35,941 nt of DNA from a virus, in IMG/VR virus record IMGVR_UViG_3300029946_000007. One strand, given 5' to 3'. The notes beneath the pieces were generated by a model that had not been told where the DNA came from, made no database searches, and worked only from the letters and a program-made list of their open reading frames with translations. This document shows, piece by piece, positions 10,800 through 15,321 of this stretch; position 1 is the stretch's first letter, and each line of letters starts with the position of its first letter. Position numbers and translations under genes: made by a program.

Positions 10800-11192
10800 T
10801 TACGCTTTTAATATTGTTCTGAGCGATTCTTGAAGAACGGCGGAAAAGTTTATTTTTCTCTCTTCCGCTTCTTTATTCATCCAATAAGGAATAGTGCAGT
10901 TTTTGCGAACCATTTTAGAGTTTTCCTTATCTCTATACGCGTCAAAGTCCACATCGACAAGAGCAGTCAATTCATCGCCTTTACATTCAAGTTTAAGATT
11001 TTTTGCTTTTGGTATTTTTTGTCCGTCGTCTTGCATAGAAATACCGACAAGCCCGATTGCGTCTTTTGCCATAAAAAGCGCGTCTTCAATGCTTTTCCCC
11101 TCGGTATTTATATCAAAATCGGGGACATATACAACATAGTATTTGCTTTTCCCTTTCGGTGGATAAATAATAATAGGATAAACGTCTTTCAT
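10800..11192 (-). CDS. hicB: HicB-family antitoxin (130 aa)
   Basis: AAAGGAGA SD. It immediately follows hicA. N-terminal HicB-like fold pattern and a C-terminal RHH-like tail (KINFSAVLQESL). Confidence 0.7.
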   Translation of the reverse strand: MKDVYPIIIYPPKGKSKYYVVYVPDFDINTEGKSIEDALFMAKDAIGLVGISMQDDGQKIPKAKNLKLECKGDELTALVDVDFDAYRDKENSKMVRKNCTIPYWMNKEAEERKINFSAVLQESLRTILKA

Positions 11193-11195
11193 ATT

Positions 11196-11375
11196 TTAAT
11201 CTCCTTTTAAATTATTTCTTTTTATAATCGCTTTTGCAAGCATTTCGTCAATCTCGCCGTGACGTGGAATCGGTTCTTTTTTGCCGCCTTTTTTATAAAT
11301 GGAATGATTCCCGCCTTCGCGGTAAAGTTCCCAACCGTTTTTCTCAAATAGTTTTATTAAATCACGTCTTTTCAT
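11196..11375 (-). CDS. hicA: HicA-family mRNA interferase toxin (59 aa)
   Basis: MKRRDLIKLFEKNGWELYREGGNHSIYKKGGKKEPIPRHGEIDEMLAKAIIK is a typical HicA/YcfA pattern. AGAGG SD. The longer track ORF (to 11450) would begin upstream of the promoter. Confidence 0.8.
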   Translation of the reverse strand: MKRRDLIKLFEKNGWELYREGGNHSIYKKGGKKEPIPRHGEIDEMLAKAIIKRNNLKGD

Positions 11376-11397
11376 CTGCAACCTCTTTACACTATAT

Positions 11398-11426
11398 ATT
11401 ATACGCATTAGTGCGTATTTTGTCAA
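11398..11426 (-). promoter_or_regulatory. Consensus promoter of hicAB (TTGACA-17-TATAAT) with an 18-bp palindromic operator
   Basis: On the minus strand: TTGACA (11426-11421) and TATAAT (11403-11398). The palindrome ATACGCA-N4-TGCGTAT at 11401-11418 overlaps the spacer. Confidence 0.75.
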
Positions 11427-11451
11427 GTATTTTGCGGCAATATTTTGCATT

Positions 11452-11778
11452 TTATTTTTTCTTTCTGTCTTTCAGTTCGCTTACAAGCGTTTTAAGCGTT
11501 GAGCGGATAAGCTGTAAATCTTCTTCGGAAAGCGAGCCGATTGCTTCCATATCGAAGCCGAGAGCCTGTAAACGCTCTTCGGTAATCTCGTTATTTTGCG
11601 GCTCGGAAGATATACCGAGAGCCTTTTCTATGGCTTGCACGGTATCTATGCGGGGGTGTGGAGTAATTTCTAAAAGGACTTTTTCAATTGTGCTTTTAGG
11701 AATCCCTGACAATTCGGAGAGTTTTTCAAACGAAATTTTCTTTTCTTTTCTTAAATTGTTTAATTCTTTGCCTGTCAT
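11452..11778 (-). CDS. XRE-family repressor (108 aa from the ATG at 11778)
   Basis: AAGGTGA SD 5 nt before the ATG at 11778; the track GTG at 11787 lies inside the SD. HTH segment ISFEKLSELSGIPKSTIEKV. Divergent from an operator-rich promoter region. Confidence 0.75.
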   Translation of the reverse strand: MTGKELNNLRKEKKISFEKLSELSGIPKSTIEKVLLEITPHPRIDTVQAIEKALGISSEPQNNEITEERLQALGFDMEAIGSLSEEDLQLIRSTLKTLVSELKDRKKK

Positions 11779-11809
11779 TTTTATCACCTTTTTTTATTTT
11801 TCTAATTCT

Positions 11810-11837
11810 ATTATAAAAAAAACTCCAAAAAAGGCAA
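11810..11837 (-). promoter_or_regulatory. Probable promoter of the XRE repressor gene (TTGCCT-16-TATAAT)
   Basis: On the minus strand: -10 TATAAT (11815-11810) and -35 TTGCCT (11837-11832). An AACTCCA half-site lies in the spacer. Confidence 0.5.
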
Positions 11838-11912
11838 CATTTTGCCGTGAAATACTTGACAAACTTAAAAAATGGAGTTATAATCATATCGTAAAGCTCC
11901 AAAAATGGAGTT
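11821..11912. promoter_or_regulatory. Operator set: four (A)ACTCCA / TGGAGT(T) half-sites plus a GGCAA-N4-TTGCC palindrome
   Basis: CTCCA at 11823-11827 and 11897-11901. TGGAG at 11873-11877 (inside the P(+) spacer) and 11906-11910. GGCAAcattTTGCC at 11833-11846. Confidence 0.6.
11856..11884 (+). promoter_or_regulatory. Perfect consensus early promoter (TTGACA-17-TATAAT), PR-like
   Basis: TTGACA at 11856-11861, 17-nt spacer, TATAAT at 11879-11884. Confidence 0.8.
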
Positions 11913-11926
11913 TACAAACGTGAGGT

Positions 11927-12020
11927 GTAAAATAAAACGCCGATTTAATTTCCAAAATCAGCCGACGATTTATCGAAAAAATAAAACGCCGACTTGATTT
12001 CCTTAAAGGTGGTCGACGTT
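11927..12020 (-). terminator. Tandem (duplicated) intrinsic terminators for minus-strand transcription
   Basis: T1: 9-bp stem 12020-12012 / 11993-11985, then UUUUAUUUUUU. T2: 8-bp stem 11962-11955 / 11946-11939, then UUUUAUUUU. Each stem has one G-U pair on the minus strand that becomes a C/A mismatch on the plus strand. Confidence 0.7.
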
Positions 12021-12266
12021 CTATTCCTGAATTTGTTTACCTTAGCGATTTGCAGTTTGCGAAAAGCCCGTTTACGGCAATAGTTTAAACCTGGCACACA
12101 CAGGCGTAAACGCGCCATTCATCGTCGCCTCGTCGGCGGTGTTTTTAAGGAGTTTTCATCTCCTACGGTAGAAATTAATCGCAAACACGGCGGAAATTAT
12201 TTCCTTTGCATAAAGCAGAGAAAAATACCTTTACCGCTTCTATGTATTGTTGCGCAACTTTCGCGG

Positions 12267-12353
12267 TTACAGTTCCGCGAACCCCGATGACGCAAGCGCA
12301 CGTCGCCCTAAGGAACAGCGGGGTAACAGGAGAAGTTTCTTAATGAGCTTCAT
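12267..12353 (-). CDS. 28-codon micro-ORF near the 5' end of the candidate RNA (MKLIKKLLLLPRCSLGRRALASSGFAEL)
   Basis: GAGGTGA SD (12365-12359) 5 nt before the ATG at 12353. In frame with the 69-aa track ORF, whose upstream part lies before the predicted transcription start. Confidence 0.3.
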   Translation of the reverse strand: MKLIKKLLLLPRCSLGRRALASSGFAEL

Positions 12354-12423
12354 AGTAATCACCTCACTTCGGAGTGTATTTCGGGGAGTCTTTCCAAAAG
12401 GGAAGAACTTCCCCGAGAAGTAT

Positions 12424-12452
12424 ATTATACGGCAAATTATTGCCGTTGTCAA
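12424..12452 (-). promoter_or_regulatory. Perfect consensus promoter on the minus strand (TTGACA-17-TATAAT) with CGGCAA-N4-TTGCCG in the spacer
   Basis: On the minus strand: TTGACA (12452-12447), 17-nt spacer, TATAAT (12429-12424). The palindrome at 12430-12445 fills the spacer. Confidence 0.75.
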
Positions 12453-12556
12453 ATAAATTAGCTTACCCATTTTCATTCCCCCTTATCATTACCAGGAGCG
12501 GACTTCTTGCGAGGGGTTCGCTCTCGGGGTGGGGAAATAAAACAAGGAGATATTCA

Positions 12557-12808
12557 ATGAATACAGCGGAAAGGATAAAAGAACTTGCAAACAAGCTTAG
12601 CGAAGAAGCGGATTATTACGGCGCGTATATCGACGAACTCAGAAAGGCGGCGGAAAAGCCCGAAGACGAGTTTATTAAGGAATGCGAAATCATTGATTTG
12701 AAATATCCGAGCATCGATAAAAAAGTGGCTCAAGCCGTCCTTGTCTTTCTTTTAAAAACATGCGAAGAAATGGACGAAGCCGAATCCGCTTCAAAATCTT
12801 TAAACTGA
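12557..12808 (+). CDS. Hypothetical early protein (83 aa)
   Basis: AAGGAGA SD 6 nt before the ATG at 12557. The track start at 12374 lies inside the structured leader and has no SD. Confidence 0.55.
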   Translation: MNTAERIKELANKLSEEADYYGAYIDELRKAAEKPEDEFIKECEIIDLKYPSIDKKVAQAVLVFLLKTCEEMDEAESASKSLN

Positions 12809-12852: not shown

Positions 12853-13074
12853 ATGGCAAGACCTTATAAATTAACTAAATATAAAAATCTTCAAAAGCTC
12901 TTAATGGAAAGGAATCTGAGGTATTGGCAGGTTGCCGCAAAGGTGTTTATGCCCGAACGAACTTTCAGATATAAAATGTCGGATAAATCACCGGGGTTTT
13001 ACTCGGCGGAGATGTTCCGCATTCAACGCAACGTTTTCCCCGACAAGACGATTGAAGAGATTTTCGGCGAATAA
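12853..13074 (+). CDS. Small Cro/DUF739-like HTH protein (73 aa)
   Basis: ATG at 12853 (weak SD). The sequence LMERNLRYWQVAAKVFMPERTFRYKMSDKSPGFYSAEMFRIQ fits a phage Cro-like HTH pattern (from memory). Confidence 0.4.
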   Translation: MARPYKLTKYKNLQKLLMERNLRYWQVAAKVFMPERTFRYKMSDKSPGFYSAEMFRIQRNVFPDKTIEEIFGE

Positions 13075-13860: not shown

Positions 13861-14052
13861 ATGAGTAAGTTAAAAGAGCGGCGAGAGGAATTGCGTTTAA
13901 CGCAAAAAGAAGTCGCCGAAAAAATAGGCATTGCTGAAAGTGCCTATCAGAGATATGAGCATACAAAAAGAGAGCCATGTGTTAGCACGGCTTTAAAGAT
14001 TGCTAAGGCGTTAAATACAACGGTAGAGGAGCTTTATTCTTCATCGATATAA
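13861..14052 (+). CDS. XRE-family HTH protein A (63 aa)
   Basis: AAGGAGA SD. Sequence LTQKEVAEKIGIAESAYQRYEHTKREP...IAKALNTTVEELY. Confidence 0.75.
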   Translation: MSKLKERREELRLTQKEVAEKIGIAESAYQRYEHTKREPCVSTALKIAKALNTTVEELYSSSI

Positions 14053-14237
14053 AGTTCTTCAACGGTTGTTTCTAAGGCTTTGGCAATGCGGACAGCCATA
14101 AAAGCAAGTGGAATTGTGTCGCCGCGTTCATATCTTTGATAGGCACTTTCTGCTATATTAGCGCGGTTGGCAACTTGTTTTTGAGTGAGTTTTAACTCTT
14201 GTCGGCGTTCTTTAAGCTTGTTATTCGGTTGGTTCAT
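14034..14237 (-). CDS. XRE-family HTH protein B (67 aa), a paralogue of A
   Basis: Sequence LTQKQVANRANIAESAYQRYERGDTIP...IAKALETTVEELY. Converges on A, with a 19-nt 3' overlap. Confidence 0.7.
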   Translation of the reverse strand: MNQPNNKLKERRQELKLTQKQVANRANIAESAYQRYERGDTIPLAFMAVRIAKALETTVEELYIDEE

Positions 14238-14430
14238 CTTCTAAAGGGAATACCTCTTCCACGGTGGCGTTTAACGCTTTAGCAATACGCAAAGCAATAT
14301 AAACGCTTGGAATTCTTGTTCCTTTTTCGTAACGATAAACAAGAGTATAAGTAGTTAAATTTGCCATTTCGGCAAGCTGTGGCTGTGTTATATTGAGTTT
14401 TTTTCGATATTCTGAAATTTTATTTGACAT
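14221..14430 (-). CDS. XRE-family HTH protein C (69 aa), a paralogue of A and B
   Basis: GAGGG SD. Sequence ITQPQLAEMANLTTYTLVYRYEKGTRIP...IAKALNATVEEVF. Overlaps B by 17 nt in the same operon. Confidence 0.75.
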   Translation of the reverse strand: MSNKISEYRKKLNITQPQLAEMANLTTYTLVYRYEKGTRIPSVYIALRIAKALNATVEEVFPLEDEPTE

Positions 14431-14474: not shown

Positions 14475-14580
14475 ACAATCGAACATGACCAAAAGGTATA
14501 GAAGCATAAATAAAAATTTAGTAAATCCGATTATACAACAAATCGGTTGCGATTGTCAAATTTGACAAAAGGAGCGAAGT

Positions 14581-15252: not shown

Positions 15253-15321
15253 ACCAAATTGGTTATAAATGCTTGACATATAACCAAATTGGTTATATAA
15301 TACATATATCCAAATTGGTTA
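15253..15321. promoter_or_regulatory. Three copies of a (T)AACCAAATTGGTTA-type palindromic operator
   Basis: ACCAAATTGGT at 15253-15263. TAACCAAATTGGTTA at 15281-15295, inside the promoter spacer. TCCAAATTGGTTA at 15309-15321. Confidence 0.8.
15273..15301 (+). promoter_or_regulatory. Perfect consensus promoter (TTGACA-17-TATAAT) of the replication/early operon
   Basis: TTGACA at 15273-15278, a 17-nt spacer that consists largely of the central operator, TATAAT at 15296-15301. Confidence 0.8.

What the first reader, a model, noticed from the sequence alone, without database searches (positions are those of the whole stretch)
11788..12556. 769-bp locus with no credible long ORF and face-to-face consensus promoters: candidate ~400-490-nt structured antisense RNA opposite a ~665-nt early leader
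**The locus.** The rest of this genome is packed with coding sequence, but 11788-12556 contains no SD-preceded ORF longer than 28 codons.

**Two perfect promoters point at each other.**
- P(+): TTGACA-17-TATAAT at 11856-11884, divergent from the XRE repressor gene and covered by its operators.
- P(-): TTGACA-17-TATAAT at 12452-12424.

**The minus-strand transcript.** It would start near 12417 with a 5' stem-loop (12382-12415). It then passes a series of GC-rich hairpins:
- TTCGCGG/CCGCGAA at 12260-12281
- CCCCG/CGGGG at 12282-12323
- the palindrome GTTGCGCAAC at 12249-12258
- GCAAA..GGAA/TTCC..TTTGC at 12181-12209
- AGGAG/CTCCT at 12148-12164
- CGCC/GGCG at 12126-12138
- CCTG/CAGG at 12090-12104

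It would end at two tandem intrinsic terminators (11927-12020), which lie only about 40-130 nt downstream of the P(+) start.

**The plus-strand transcript.** It must read about 665 nt, fully antisense to this RNA, before reaching the first early gene at 12557.

**Interpretation.** The layout resembles RNA-based immunity or convergent-transcription switches such as P4 CI RNA, P1 c4 and pCF10 prgQ/prgX. Its size and prophage context would also fit large ornate prophage RNAs such as ROOL or GOLLD. I cannot assign it to any known class by eye.
Basis: partly seen in the sequence, partly recalled or inferred. Interest (0 to 1): 0.85.

Follow-up and report, generated by a model that had tools for sequence, protein, structure and literature searches.

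The report
FuFi-1 RNA gene facing lytic promoter
The "empty" 769-bp stretch is a self-contained gene for a roughly 440-490-nt structured RNA of the known but function-less FuFi-1 family, placed head-on against the prophage's early (cro-containing) promoter beside the repressor gene; this placement recurs in every related phage examined and gives the orphan RNA a testable role in the lysis-lysogeny switch.

Summary
Both 12/12 promoters, the tandem minus-strand terminators and the lack of a long ORF are at the stated coordinates.

The minus-strand RNA is not unclassifiable. Window 12300..11980(-) matches Rfam FuFi-1 (RF02986) over the whole model (77.7 bits, gathering score 59.6, E 5e-15). FuFi-1 is an orphan prophage RNA described in 2017. 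ROOL, GOLLD and C4 do not match.

The window copy is an expanded variant, with a 41-nt insert in P3, a 115-nt insert in P4, and two terminators.

New here:
- In 17 of 18 sequence-distinct FuFi-1 loci, a near-consensus promoter next to a CI-like repressor gene fires into the RNA gene.
- A pseudoknot is supported by covariation.
- The transcription unit begins well upstream of the Rfam model, with a promoter, 5' hairpin, Shine-Dalgarno sequence and a conserved 10-39-codon ORF. In canonical members there is also a covarying 5' domain that Rfam does not model.
- Heteroimmune relatives keep the RNA cassette at least 97% identical while repressor and operators change.

Best reading: a lysogeny-side countertranscript opposing early lytic transcription, probably with an added trans or translation-coupled role. 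The mechanism is inferred, not shown.

Verdict: new member of a known kind; interest about 0.6.

The parts
12424..12452 (-). P(-): promoter of the FuFi-1 unit. The -35 box TTGACA is at 12452..12447 and the -10 box TATAAT at 12429..12424, with a 17-nt spacer. The inferred transcription start is near 12417.
   Evidence: It is a 12/12 consensus match. Both hexamers are invariant in the relatives L027, L170, L171 and L174, and sequence similarity to those relatives begins right at the -35 box.
12430..12446 (.). Perfect palindrome ACGGCAA-N4-TTGCCGT that fills the spacer of P(-). It is a candidate operator for an unknown dimeric regulator.
   Evidence: (D8, I1). The arms are invariant and the central 4 nt vary (TAAT, ACAT, GAAT, TAAA) across relatives with three different immunity types. 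A weaker second copy lies at 11833-11848.
12381..12416 (-). 5'-terminal stem-loop of the RNA (CGGGGA...UCCCCG).
   Evidence: It appears in both the MFE and the centroid fold. A 5' hairpin in the same position (GCC-UAYU-GGC) is present in canonical family members.
12267..12365 (-). Shine-Dalgarno sequence GAGGTG (12365..12360) and a 28-codon mini-ORF, from ATG at 12353 to the TAA stop at 12269..12267. The peptide is MKLIKKLLLLPRCSLGRRALASSGFAEL. The stop codon lies in the P1a loop.
   Evidence: Every FuFi-1 unit examined has an SD and an ATG, GTG or TTG start at the equivalent place, with a 10-39-codon ORF carrying the motif (T/K)-x-L-L-x-L-P. In relatives the ORF stays in frame through an 8-nt substitution patch and one synonymous TTA>TTG change.
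11980..12300 (-). Match to Rfam FuFi-1 (RF02986), covering model positions 1-175.
   Evidence: 77.7 bits against a gathering score of 59.6, E 5e-15 for the whole window.
12250..12300 (-). P1 with the inner hairpin P1a (12281..12260). The P1a loop AACUGUAA lies at 12274..12267.
   Evidence: Rfam alignment.
12238..12244 (-). Conserved junction sequence CAUAGAA of the three-way junction.
   Evidence: Rfam alignment.
12187..12237 (-). P3 hairpin, with a 41-nt insert where the consensus has 11 nt.
   Evidence: In relatives the changes fall in loops or improve pairing, for example C.A to C-G in L170 and L171.
12056..12186 (-). P4, with stem strands at 12186..12179 and 12063..12056. It carries a 115-nt insert (12178..12064) made of several hairpins.
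   Evidence: There are only 2 substitutions against L027 across the whole RNA core.
12026..12055 (-). Junction sequence CUGCA (12055..12051) and the conserved linker GGUAAACAAAUUCAGG (12041..12026). Linker bases 12031..12027 (UUCAG) pair with the P1a loop bases 12272..12268 to form a pseudoknot.
   Evidence: The window has C-G, U-A, G-C, one U/U mismatch and A-U. Two of these are double (compensatory) changes relative to the consensus CCAAA/UUUGG.
11975..12020 (-). T1, the intrinsic terminator of the FuFi-1 model. The stem is AACGUCGAC/GUCGGCGUU and is followed by a U-tract.
11929..11962 (-). T2, a second tandem terminator. It is a 49-nt-spaced duplicate of T1.
   Evidence: D4. It is kept in all close relatives.
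11856..11884 (+). P(+): the early (lytic-side) promoter, firing into the FuFi-1 gene. The inferred start is near 11891.
   Evidence: It is a 12/12 consensus match. An equivalent promoter (at least 10/12, with a perfect TTGACA) sits about 100 bp upstream of the CI-like gene in 17 of 18 representative loci.
11819..11912 (.). Three copies of the repressor operator motif (AACTCCA / TGGAGTT): 11819-11832, 11866-11879, and the palindrome 11894-11912.
   Evidence: D5, D6. At the same three positions, heteroimmune relatives carry different repeats that change together with their repressor allele.
11452..11787 (-). XRE/CI-like repressor gene (111 aa). Its own promoter, TTGCCT-16-TATAAT, is at 11837..11810.
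   Evidence: Pfam HTH_3 and HTH_26; promoter scan.
12853..13074 (+). Cro-like small HTH gene (73 aa) of the P(+) operon. The 83-aa gene at 12557-12808 that precedes it is absent from L027 and L169.
   Evidence: It shares 29% identity over 62 aa (pairwise E 3e-7) with the cro-like gene that flanks FuFi-1 in L109. The indel is shown.
12120..12151 (+). Plus-strand terminator-like hairpin (8 bp including G.U pairs, followed by UUUUU) inside the P4 insert, about 250 nt into the P(+) leader.
   Evidence: It is not a family-wide feature and is roughly kept in L170 and L171. It is a possible leader attenuator, but this was not tested.

Best explanation
**Shown.**
- The locus is a self-contained gene for a FuFi-1-family RNA. 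It is transcribed on the minus strand from the consensus promoter P(-) (start near 12417). Transcription ends at T1 (about 443 nt) or T2 (about 489 nt).
- The RNA has, in order: a 5' hairpin, an SD with a 28-codon mini-ORF, the FuFi-1 core with large P3 and P4 inserts, and tandem terminators. The core comprises P1/P1a, a three-way junction, the GGUAAACAAAUU linker and a pseudoknot.
- The gene sits head-on to the early promoter P(+), beside the repressor gene. Every transcript of the cro-containing early operon must therefore be copied across it.
- This layout recurs in 17 of 18 representative FuFi-1 loci.

**Inferred mechanism.**
- In a lysogen the repressor shuts P(+), so P(-) runs unopposed and the stable RNA accumulates. 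Its 5' hairpin and ribosome-binding site are classic Firmicute stabilisers.
- Transcripts that escape P(+) are damped in two ways: by polymerase collision between the two consensus promoters, and by pairing of the abundant RNA with the complementary 666-nt leader (duplex cleavage or premature termination). This lowers expression of Cro-like and early genes and stabilises lysogeny.
- After repressor loss, strong P(+) transcription in turn suppresses P(-).
- The invariant unpaired nucleotides and the pseudoknot are more than a plain antisense RNA needs. The RNA therefore probably also binds a conserved partner or couples its fold to translation of the mini-ORF.

**Confidence by step.**
- Identity as FuFi-1: about 0.95.
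- A discrete expressed unit: about 0.8.
- The countertranscript mechanism: about 0.4.
For: **Identity.** The Rfam match exceeds the gathering score over the full model. The pseudoknot shows compensatory changes in independent lineages, the window included (92.9% of cells paired; 0 of 500 shuffles reach the observed value; 95.5% of cells in the tested structure paired in register, at most 46% when slid).

**Discrete unit under selection.**
- Both promoter hexamers and both terminators are conserved.
- Similarity to heteroimmune relatives starts at the -35 box and ends after T2.
- There are 2 substitutions in 359 nt of RNA, against 24 in the 336-nt repressor gene, between the window and L027.

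**Layout.**
- 17 of 18 sequence-distinct loci have a promoter (at least 10/12, with a perfect TTGACA) between the FuFi-1 terminator and the next same-strand gene, pointing into FuFi-1.
- That next gene is HTH_3, with or without Peptidase_S24, in 9 of 10 tested.
- The gene in between on the opposite strand, when present, is Cro-like (HTH_26 or DUF739).
- In 6 of 9 such loci its stop codon abuts the FuFi-1 U-tract within 4 nt.
- The window's P(+) operon contains a homologue of that Cro-like gene.
- The operators change together with the repressor allele in relatives, which marks P(+) as repressor-controlled.

**Strand.** Many invariant G.U pairs mean that only this strand folds.
Against: - There are no expression data of any kind.
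- A pure cis-antisense RNA has no need for conserved unpaired sequence, a three-way junction or a pseudoknot. The conservation argues that pairing with the leader is not the whole function.
- FuFi-1 lies before cro in some phages and after it in others, so it cannot act through one fixed target such as the cro ribosome-binding site.
- The RNA overlaps no ribosome-binding site of a lytic gene.
- No trans target for the conserved linker exists elsewhere in the window beyond chance.
- All comparison loci come from a viral-contig collection, so the prophage context is partly built in.
- Weinberg et al. 2017 (PMC5737381) report no self-cleavage and propose no function.
Confidence: 0.5

Rival explanations
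1. FuFi-1 is mainly a trans-acting structured RNA of the lysogenic state. It would be a decoy, scaffold or sensor that binds a conserved host or phage macromolecule or a small ligand. Its antisense position would serve only to make its synthesis mutually exclusive with lytic transcription.
For: - The RNA has invariant single-stranded blocks (CAUAGAA, CUGCA, GGUAAACAAAUU), a three-way junction and a covarying pseudoknot.
- Canonical members also have a covarying 5' domain of about 210 nt.
- The RNA cassette stays at least 97% identical across three immunity types.
- The 5' hairpin and SD suggest a stable, abundant RNA.
- Weinberg et al. 2017 grouped it with motifs whose features suggest sophisticated biochemistry.
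Against: - No protein family is consistently encoded nearby; the upstream genes are unrelated small proteins.
- No ligand or partner is known.
- The strict head-on placement in 17 of 18 loci is more specific than simple co-regulation requires.
Confidence: 0.3
2. FuFi-1 is a conditional-terminator leader, in the manner of lambda PRE. P(-) would be a lysogeny promoter whose transcripts normally stop at the FuFi-1 terminator. On a signal (a ligand, a protein, or ribosome position on the mini-ORF) they would read through, run antisense over P(+) or cro, and enter the repressor gene.
For: - In all 18 representative loci the next gene on the RNA's strand is the CI-like repressor.
- In loci where a Cro-like gene lies between FuFi-1 and the repressor gene, read-through would immediately become anti-cro RNA.
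- A conserved, Leu-rich mini-ORF sits at the 5' end.
- Nucleotides of that ORF (UGCCU) are predicted to pair with the linker (GGGUA) just before the terminator.
- In the window the ORF's stop codon lies in the pseudoknot loop.
Against: - No segment complementary to a terminator arm occupies a consistent position, so no conserved antiterminator was found.
- The window and its relatives carry two tandem terminators, which argues for tight stopping.
- The repressor gene has its own promoter.
- The UGCCU/GGGUA pairing never varies on both sides, so it is unproven.
Confidence: 0.1
3. The unit is really a small-protein gene, or the toxin mRNA of a type I toxin-antitoxin pair, with a long structured 3' UTR. 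The peptide would be the effector.
For: - An SD at the correct spacing and an ATG, GTG or TTG start are present in all units.
- Where TTG became TTA, an in-frame ATG lies one codon upstream.
- The proline codon of the motif uses all four synonymous codons.
- The frame is kept in relatives.
Against: - The ORF is only 10-13 codons long in many members, and nothing is conserved beyond about 10 residues. This is too short and too variable for a membrane toxin.
- Nucleotide conservation continues past the stop codons, and there are frame-shifting indels within the conserved block (L109 against the others).
- The most conserved and covarying parts lie outside the ORF.
Confidence: 0.06

Closest known systems
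FuFi-1 RNA motif (Rfam RF02986; Weinberg et al. 2017, PMC5737381)
   Same: The window is a member. It gives a full-length match above the gathering score. It has P1/P1a, the three-way junction, CAUAGAA, CUGCA, GGUAAACAAAUU and a 3' intrinsic terminator. Its host is a Firmicute (Clostridia) and it lies in a prophage.
   Different: - The match spans 321 nt, against about 160 nt for canonical members.
- P3 carries a 41-nt insert and P4 a 115-nt insert.
- There is a second terminator.
- It lacks the roughly 210-nt covarying 5' domain that canonical members have upstream of the Rfam model.
- The family's function is unknown, so membership does not explain what the RNA does.
Phage lambda OOP RNA (my own knowledge)
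   Same: It is a short RNA with its own promoter, made antisense inside the early rightward operon next to the cro/cII regulators, and it ends at an intrinsic terminator. In FuFi-1 loci where a Cro-like gene lies between the RNA and the repressor gene, the RNA's 3' end abuts the end of that gene.
   Different: OOP is 77 nt and a simple hairpin RNA. It overlaps the 3' end of the cII coding sequence, acts through RNase III and favours lytic growth. FuFi-1 is 5-6 times longer and highly structured, overlaps no coding sequence, and its effect is unknown.
Face-to-face lytic and lysogenic promoters of coliphages 186 and P2 (pR/pL; transcriptional interference, cf. PMC5001618)
   Same: Convergent promoters sit at the lysis-lysogeny switch, one of them repressor-controlled, so polymerase traffic from one suppresses the other.
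   Different: In 186 the promoters are 62 bp apart and pL drives the cI-int mRNA. Here they are about 570 bp apart, and the lysogeny-side promoter makes a terminated non-coding RNA.
Countertranscript-driven attenuation in Gram-positive plasmids pT181, pIP501 and pAMbeta1 (my own knowledge)
   Same: This is a Firmicute system in which an antisense RNA made from the leader region pairs with the nascent sense leader and causes premature termination. The window's P(+) leader contains a terminator-like hairpin at 12120-12141, within the region covered by the antisense RNA.
   Different: Those countertranscripts are 85-150 nt and have simple stem-loops. The plus-strand terminator is not conserved across FuFi-1 loci.
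P4 CI RNA and P1/P7 C4 RNA (Rfam C4 family)
   Same: These are RNA components of prophage immunity encoded in the leader of the operon they control.
   Different: There is no Rfam match to C4. Those RNAs are processed from the sense transcript and pair with separate upstream target sites; no such targets were found here.
ROOL and GOLLD large prophage RNAs
   Same: They are large, ornate, often prophage-borne RNAs of unknown function.
   Different: There is no match at gathering score or at E <= 10. They differ in size, in architecture and in their usual tRNA-adjacent context.

Membership tests
FuFi-1 (RF02986) | Covariance-model score at or above Rfam's gathering score, over the full model | tested here: met
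   77.7 bits against 59.6, model positions 1-175 of 175, E 5e-15. The relative L027 scores 77.5 bits and canonical loci score 121-144 bits.
FuFi-1 (RF02986) | A 5' hairpin P1 enclosing an inner hairpin whose loop begins AAC | tested here: met
   UUCGCGG-AACUGUAA-CCGCGAA at 12281..12260, inside P1.
FuFi-1 (RF02986) | Three-stem junction with the conserved junction sequences AUAGAA and CUGCA | tested here: met
   CAUAGAA at 12244..12238 and CUGCA at 12055..12051. P2 has three non-standard pairs flagged in the alignment.
FuFi-1 (RF02986) | Conserved linker GGUAAAcAAAUU between the junction and the terminator | tested here: met
   GGUAAACAAAUU at 12041..12030.
FuFi-1 (RF02986) | Rho-independent terminator at the 3' end | tested here: met
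   T1 at 12020..11975 is aligned to the model's terminator. A second terminator, T2, follows it.
FuFi-1 (RF02986) | Pseudoknot between the P1a loop and the linker. This was derived here; I could not check whether the original figure shows it. | tested here: met
   The window pairs CUG(U)A with U(U)CAG. Across 20 distinct sequences the helix is 92.9% paired, with CG/UA and AU/GC exchanges.
FuFi-1 (RF02986) | Host in Firmicutes or Fusobacteria, often in a prophage | tested here: met
   An integrase, a CI-like repressor and structural genes are in the window. A 94-96% identical element lies in an uncultured Clostridia MAG.
ROOL / GOLLD | Match to the family covariance model | tested here: not met
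   No match at gathering score over the whole window, nor at E <= 10 over 11700-12650.
C4 / P4 CI antisense RNAs | Match to the Rfam C4 model, with separate complementary target sites in the controlled operon | tested here: not met
   No Rfam match. The complement of the conserved linker occurs only at its own locus, and 2-mismatch matches are at chance level.
Transcriptional riboswitch or attenuator | A conserved alternative (antiterminator) pairing that competes with the terminator | tested here: not met
   The best complement to either terminator arm falls at inconsistent positions in 16 units. Ligand binding cannot be tested with these tools.
Type I toxin-antitoxin | A conserved hydrophobic toxin ORF of roughly 20-60 residues, with an antisense RNA over its ribosome-binding site or 3' end | tested here: not met
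   The ORF is 10-39 codons long and only about 10 residues are conserved; many members stop after 10-13 codons.
Cis-antisense regulator of the early operon (functional class, not a sequence family) | The RNA gene lies inside, and opposite to, a transcription unit driven by a repressor-controlled promoter | tested here: met
   This holds for the window and for 17 of 18 representative loci. Actual transcription and any effect on the sense RNA cannot be tested with these tools.

The most novel reading that the evidence does not exclude
FuFi-1 is a third, RNA arm of the CI/Cro switch in a broad set of temperate phages of Firmicutes. It would be a roughly 400-nt RNA whose fold (pseudoknot, and long-range pairing of mini-ORF nucleotides with the linker next to the terminator) is remodelled by translation of its conserved Leu/Pro-rich mini-ORF. 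The RNA would thereby report the host's translational or nutritional state and set how strongly early lytic transcription is opposed, or how much read-through reaches the repressor gene. Because the cassette is nearly identical in heteroimmune relatives, it could also act in trans on incoming relatives, as a repressor-independent layer of immunity.
Probability: 0.12. Interest if true: 0.85.

Novelty: new member of a known kind. Interest (0 to 1): 0.6.

Why it matters
FuFi-1 was singled out in 2017 as one of a few bacterial RNA motifs whose conservation suggests sophisticated biochemistry. In the library searched, no later paper addresses it.

Three results here turn it from a motif of unknown function into a concrete hypothesis for phage biology:
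- It sits head-on to the repressor-controlled early promoter, next to CI- and Cro-like genes, in nearly all representative loci.
- Its real transcription unit is about twice the size of the Rfam model.
- That unit starts with a ribosome-binding site and a conserved mini-ORF.

The hypothesis can be tested with standard lysogen genetics. If it holds, many temperate phages of gut Clostridia and relatives use a large structured RNA alongside the protein switch. This would matter for understanding prophage stability and induction in the gut microbiome.

For genome annotation, the practical lesson is that this "gene desert" is ordinary once Rfam is run.

Tried and rejected
- **Cultured phages.** blastn of the locus and of a canonical full unit against 50,697 GenBank phage records gave no match. 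No cultured phage can be named as a model.
- **Supplementary text.** The supplement of Weinberg et al. 2017 is not held. I could not check what the authors wrote about context or a pseudoknot.
- **Trans targets.** Only the self site is complementary to the conserved linker in the window, and 2-mismatch hits are at chance level.
- **Antiterminator.** No conserved antiterminator was found.
- **Lytic-strand terminators.** Terminators on the lytic strand inside the unit are absent from most loci, so the window's site at 12120-12141 cannot be generalised.
- **Shared operators.** Operator words shared between FuFi-1 promoters and switch regions in other loci showed nothing consistent.
- **Protein partner.** No conserved protein partner is encoded upstream.
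- **Viral scan.** The scan with GGTAAACAAATTCAGG returned mostly chance hits. Only L123 was a useful new variant.
- **tRNA/tmRNA.** None in the window.
- **ROOL, GOLLD and C4.** No match.
- **Domain relocation.** I considered that the P4 insert of the window type is a relocated copy of the canonical 5' domain. It rests only on a short shared UUAAACU-like motif, so I left it as speculation.
- **SD pairing with the terminator.** Pairing of the terminator's 3' arm with the SD region looked recurrent, but it is explained by U-rich against purine-rich composition.
Full report
**1. The observation**

- P(+) (TTGACA-17-TATAAT, 11856-11884) and P(-) (12452-12424) are exact consensus promoters.
- Two minus-strand intrinsic terminators lie at 12020..11975 and 11962..11929. 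They are 49-nt-spaced duplicates.
- Between 11788 and 12556 the only SD-preceded ORF has 28 codons (12353..12267, minus strand).
- The predicted 488-nt minus-strand RNA folds better than all 100 shuffles (z = -3.8).
- GC content peaks inside the locus.

**2. What it is**

- A scan of the whole window against Rfam 15 gives one match above a gathering score: FuFi-1 (RF02986), minus strand 12300..11980, 77.7 bits against 59.6, E 5e-15, covering model positions 1-175.
- A permissive scan (E <= 10) of 11700-12650 finds nothing else credible. There is no ROOL, GOLLD or C4 match.
- The alignment shows the family's conserved elements: P1 with the inner hairpin P1a, CAUAGAA, CUGCA, GGUAAACAAAUU and the terminator.
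- The window copy has a 41-nt insert in P3 (consensus 11 nt) and about 115 nt inserted in P4.
- FuFi-1 was described by Weinberg et al. [quoted passage not shown] They judged it an improbable riboswitch, saw no self-cleavage and assigned no function.
- I found no later paper on it in the library searched.

**3. Relatives**

- A pattern scan of viral contigs returned 120 loci, of which about 80 are FuFi-1.
- Thirteen sequence-distinct representatives were confirmed with Rfam. Eleven are canonical (about 160-190 nt, 121-144 bits). The window, L027 and L064 are expanded (225-321 nt, about 78 bits).
- L027 and the genome hit L169 are 94-96% identical to the window over most of the prophage arm. 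L169 is an uncultured Clostridia MAG, CALAFO010000005.1. Both lack the 83-aa gene at 12557-12808.
- A metagenome scan added L170, L171 and L174.
- Neither the locus nor a canonical unit has a blastn match in GenBank phages.

**4. A discrete cassette under selection**

- Between the window and L027, the RNA from 12338 to 11980 has 2 substitutions in 359 nt. The adjacent repressor gene has 24 in 336 nt.
- L170, L171 and L174 carry different operator repeats and diverged repressors, making three immunity types. Even so, their sequence from the -35 box of P(-) to T2 is at least 97% identical to the window, and similarity drops on both sides of that block.
- The three operator positions (11819-11832, 11866-11879, 11894-11912 in the window) change together with the repressor allele. 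This supports the reading that P(+) is repressor-controlled.

**5. Structure beyond the Rfam model**

(a) *Pseudoknot.*
- The P1a loop (AAC-N4-A) pairs with the five bases that follow GGUAAACAAA.
- Observed partner combinations are CCAAA/UUUGG, CUAAA/UUUAG, CUG(U)A/U(U)CAG (window), CCUGAA/UUCAGG (L123), CCGGAA/UUUCGG (L034) and CCGAA/UUCG-G (L023). There is one exception, L078.
- On 20 distinct sequences this helix is 92.9% paired, with CG13/UA5 at one pair and AU15/GC3/GU1 at another. No shuffle in 500 reaches the observed value. In the tested structure (P1a stem plus pseudoknot) 95.5% of cells pair in register, against at most 46% when slid.

(b) *5' extension.*
- In canonical loci, conservation starts about 210-220 nt upstream of the Rfam model.
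- It comprises a promoter, a 5' hairpin (GCC-UAYU-GGC), an SD (AAAGGAG), an ATG, GTG or TTG start, a short ORF, and then a domain with two long-range helices.
- In alignment A1 these helices are columns 82-89/256-263 (7 of 8 pairs with compensatory changes) and columns 145-154/239-249 (6 of 9).
- No shuffle in 500 reaches the observed value on any measure for the whole 80-pair structure.
- Rfam has no match to this 5' domain, even at E <= 10.

(c) *The window type.*
- The window type (also L034, L023, L064 and L123) keeps the promoter, 5' hairpin, SD and ORF but goes almost directly into P1. It carries its extra structure as inserts in P3 and P4 instead.

**6. The mini-ORF**

- All but one of the 25 units tabulated automatically have an SD-preceded ORF of 10-39 codons with the motif (T/K)-x-L-L-x-L-P. 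The exception, L064, has MGNLFSRPFPDLKIIKC, which I read by eye.
- The start codon varies among ATG, GTG and TTG at one position. Where TTG became TTA, an in-frame ATG lies one codon upstream.
- The motif's proline uses all four synonymous codons.
- In the window's relatives the ORF stays in frame through an 8-nt patch (MKLIKK, MKKLLK or MKKLIK), and there is one synonymous TTA>TTG change.
- Against a peptide effector: only about 10 residues are conserved, many ORFs stop after 10-13 codons, and nucleotide conservation continues past the stop codons.
- Translation and the fold look mutually exclusive.
  - In canonical members, ORF nucleotides UGCCU are predicted to pair with GGGUA of the linker. 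Four of these five pairs never vary and the fifth varies on one side only, so the pairing is unproven.
  - In canonical members the ORF also ends at the 5' strand of the first long-range helix.
  - In the window the ORF runs through P1 and P1a, and its stop codon lies in the pseudoknot loop.
- From my own knowledge, a 5' hairpin plus a strong ribosome-binding site is also a known mRNA stabiliser in Firmicutes.

**7. Genomic context across the family**

With the RNA oriented left to right, 18 representative loci show one layout.
- The next gene on the RNA's strand is a CI-like repressor. It was HTH_3, with or without Peptidase_S24, in 9 of 10 tested.
- About 100 bp upstream of that gene, a divergent promoter (at least 10/12, with a perfect TTGACA, in 17 of 18) points back into FuFi-1.
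- In nine loci a Cro-like gene (HTH_26 or DUF739) lies between that promoter and the RNA, tail-to-tail with it. In six of the nine its stop codon is within 4 nt of the FuFi-1 U-tract.
- In the others, as in the window, the promoter fires straight into the RNA gene.
- The window's Cro-like gene (12853-13074) lies further along the same operon. It shares 29% identity with the L109 Cro-like protein, E 3e-7.
- The genes on the far side are unrelated small early proteins, so there is no conserved protein partner.

**8. How it most likely works**

Shown by the analyses above:
- the anatomy of the RNA gene;
- the conservation of the cassette;
- the convergent layout next to the repressor-controlled promoter.

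Inferred:
- With P(+) repressed, P(-) makes an abundant, stable RNA.
- Escaping early transcripts are opposed by polymerase collision and by pairing with the fully complementary leader. This lowers Cro-like and early expression.
- Derepressed P(+) in turn suppresses P(-).

Two points argue that pairing is not the whole story:
- the conserved unpaired nucleotides, the junction and the pseudoknot;
- the variable position of the RNA relative to cro.

A trans role (binding a partner or ligand) or a translation-coupled role is the main rival or complement.

A PRE-like read-through model fits the gene order. It is weakened by three findings:
- the tandem terminators;
- the repressor's own promoter;
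- the absence of a conserved antiterminator.

**9. Comparison with known systems and novelty**

- By every defining feature I could test, the window RNA is a member of FuFi-1.
- Its layout resembles three known systems, without being a member of any:
  - lambda OOP;
  - the 186 pR/pL convergent promoters;
  - plasmid countertranscript attenuation.
- The locus itself is a new member, of an expanded architecture, of a known orphan family.
- As far as I could check, three things are new:
  - the systematic switch context;
  - the roughly 2-fold larger transcription unit with its mini-ORF and covarying 5' domain;
  - the pseudoknot evidence.
- I could not see the original figure or supplement, so the authors may already have noted some of this.

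**10. Caveats**

- There are no expression data.
- All comparison loci come from a viral-contig collection, and the effective sample is about 20 sequence clusters.
- Promoter and terminator calls are consensus matches.
- My ORF maps are heuristic.
- The mechanism is inference.

Noticed in passing
L081 7091-7300 (minus strand) and the equivalent stretch in L054, L069, L057, L072, L051, L102, L055, L079, L009 and L028: Canonical FuFi-1 RNAs have a conserved 5' domain of about 210 nt upstream of the Rfam model. It contains two long-range helices with many compensatory changes. Rfam 15 has no match to it at E <= 10.
   Followed up: yes
window 12430-12446 and 11833-11848: The palindrome ACGGCAA-N4-TTGCCGT fills the spacer of the FuFi-1 promoter. 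Its arms are invariant and its centre varies in relatives of three immunity types. A weaker copy overlaps the repressor promoter's -35 region in the window, but it is degenerate in L170. The binding protein is unknown.
   Followed up: partly
window 12120-12151 (+): A plus-strand-specific terminator-like hairpin (its G.U pairs would be C.A on the other strand) with a UUUUU tail lies about 250 nt into the early leader, inside the P4 insert. It could attenuate early transcription. It is not present in most other FuFi-1 loci.
   Followed up: partly
window 10800-11450: A HicB/HicA toxin-antitoxin pair lies between the repressor gene and the integrase module. This segment (10801-11406) has no blastn match in the otherwise 94-96% identical relatives L027 and L169, which carry other small genes there.
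   Followed up: partly
window 12545-12803: The first gene after the leader (83 aa, no Pfam hit) is a clean indel. It is absent from L027, L169, L172 and L173, where the leader joins directly to the sequence upstream of the Cro-like gene.
   Followed up: partly
window 13861-14430, 14530-14559 (-) and 15273-15301 (+): A second regulatory cluster is present. It has three small HTH_3 genes on both strands and two further 12/12 consensus promoters. The prophage therefore has more than one switch-like node, and calling P(+) 'the' lytic promoter is an inference.
   Followed up: no
L170, L171 and L174, in the region after T2 (equivalent to window 11800-11915): The three operator positions carry different repeats in each relative (CTCCA/TGGAG; ACTCA/TGAGT; GTACC/GGAAC-like). 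These change together with diverged repressor genes. It is a neat natural set of heteroimmune phages that share one FuFi-1 cassette.
   Followed up: partly
L174, equivalents of window 12035 and 12183: This copy has substitutions at otherwise invariant positions: GGUAAAUAAAUU in the linker, and a U>C change that breaks a P4 pair. It may be a decaying copy or an assembly error.
   Followed up: no
L072 2776-2829 and L069 10560-10630: Other orphan Rfam RNAs occur on the same phage contigs as FuFi-1: RAGATH-31 (75.9 bits) and skipping-rope (58.8 bits).
   Followed up: no
Alignment A1, columns 401-413 (canonical terminators): The apical part of the FuFi-1 terminator hairpin is itself conserved (GGRA-AYRRCRC-UCC) rather than free to vary. 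The hairpin may therefore do more than terminate transcription. The window's terminators differ.
   Followed up: no
L055 and L069, about 0.5-1 kb upstream of FuFi-1, on the RNA's strand: Two loci carry a gene of about 160 aa, with a hydrophobic N-terminus, on the RNA's strand just upstream of the FuFi-1 promoter. These may be lysogeny-expressed morons.
   Followed up: no
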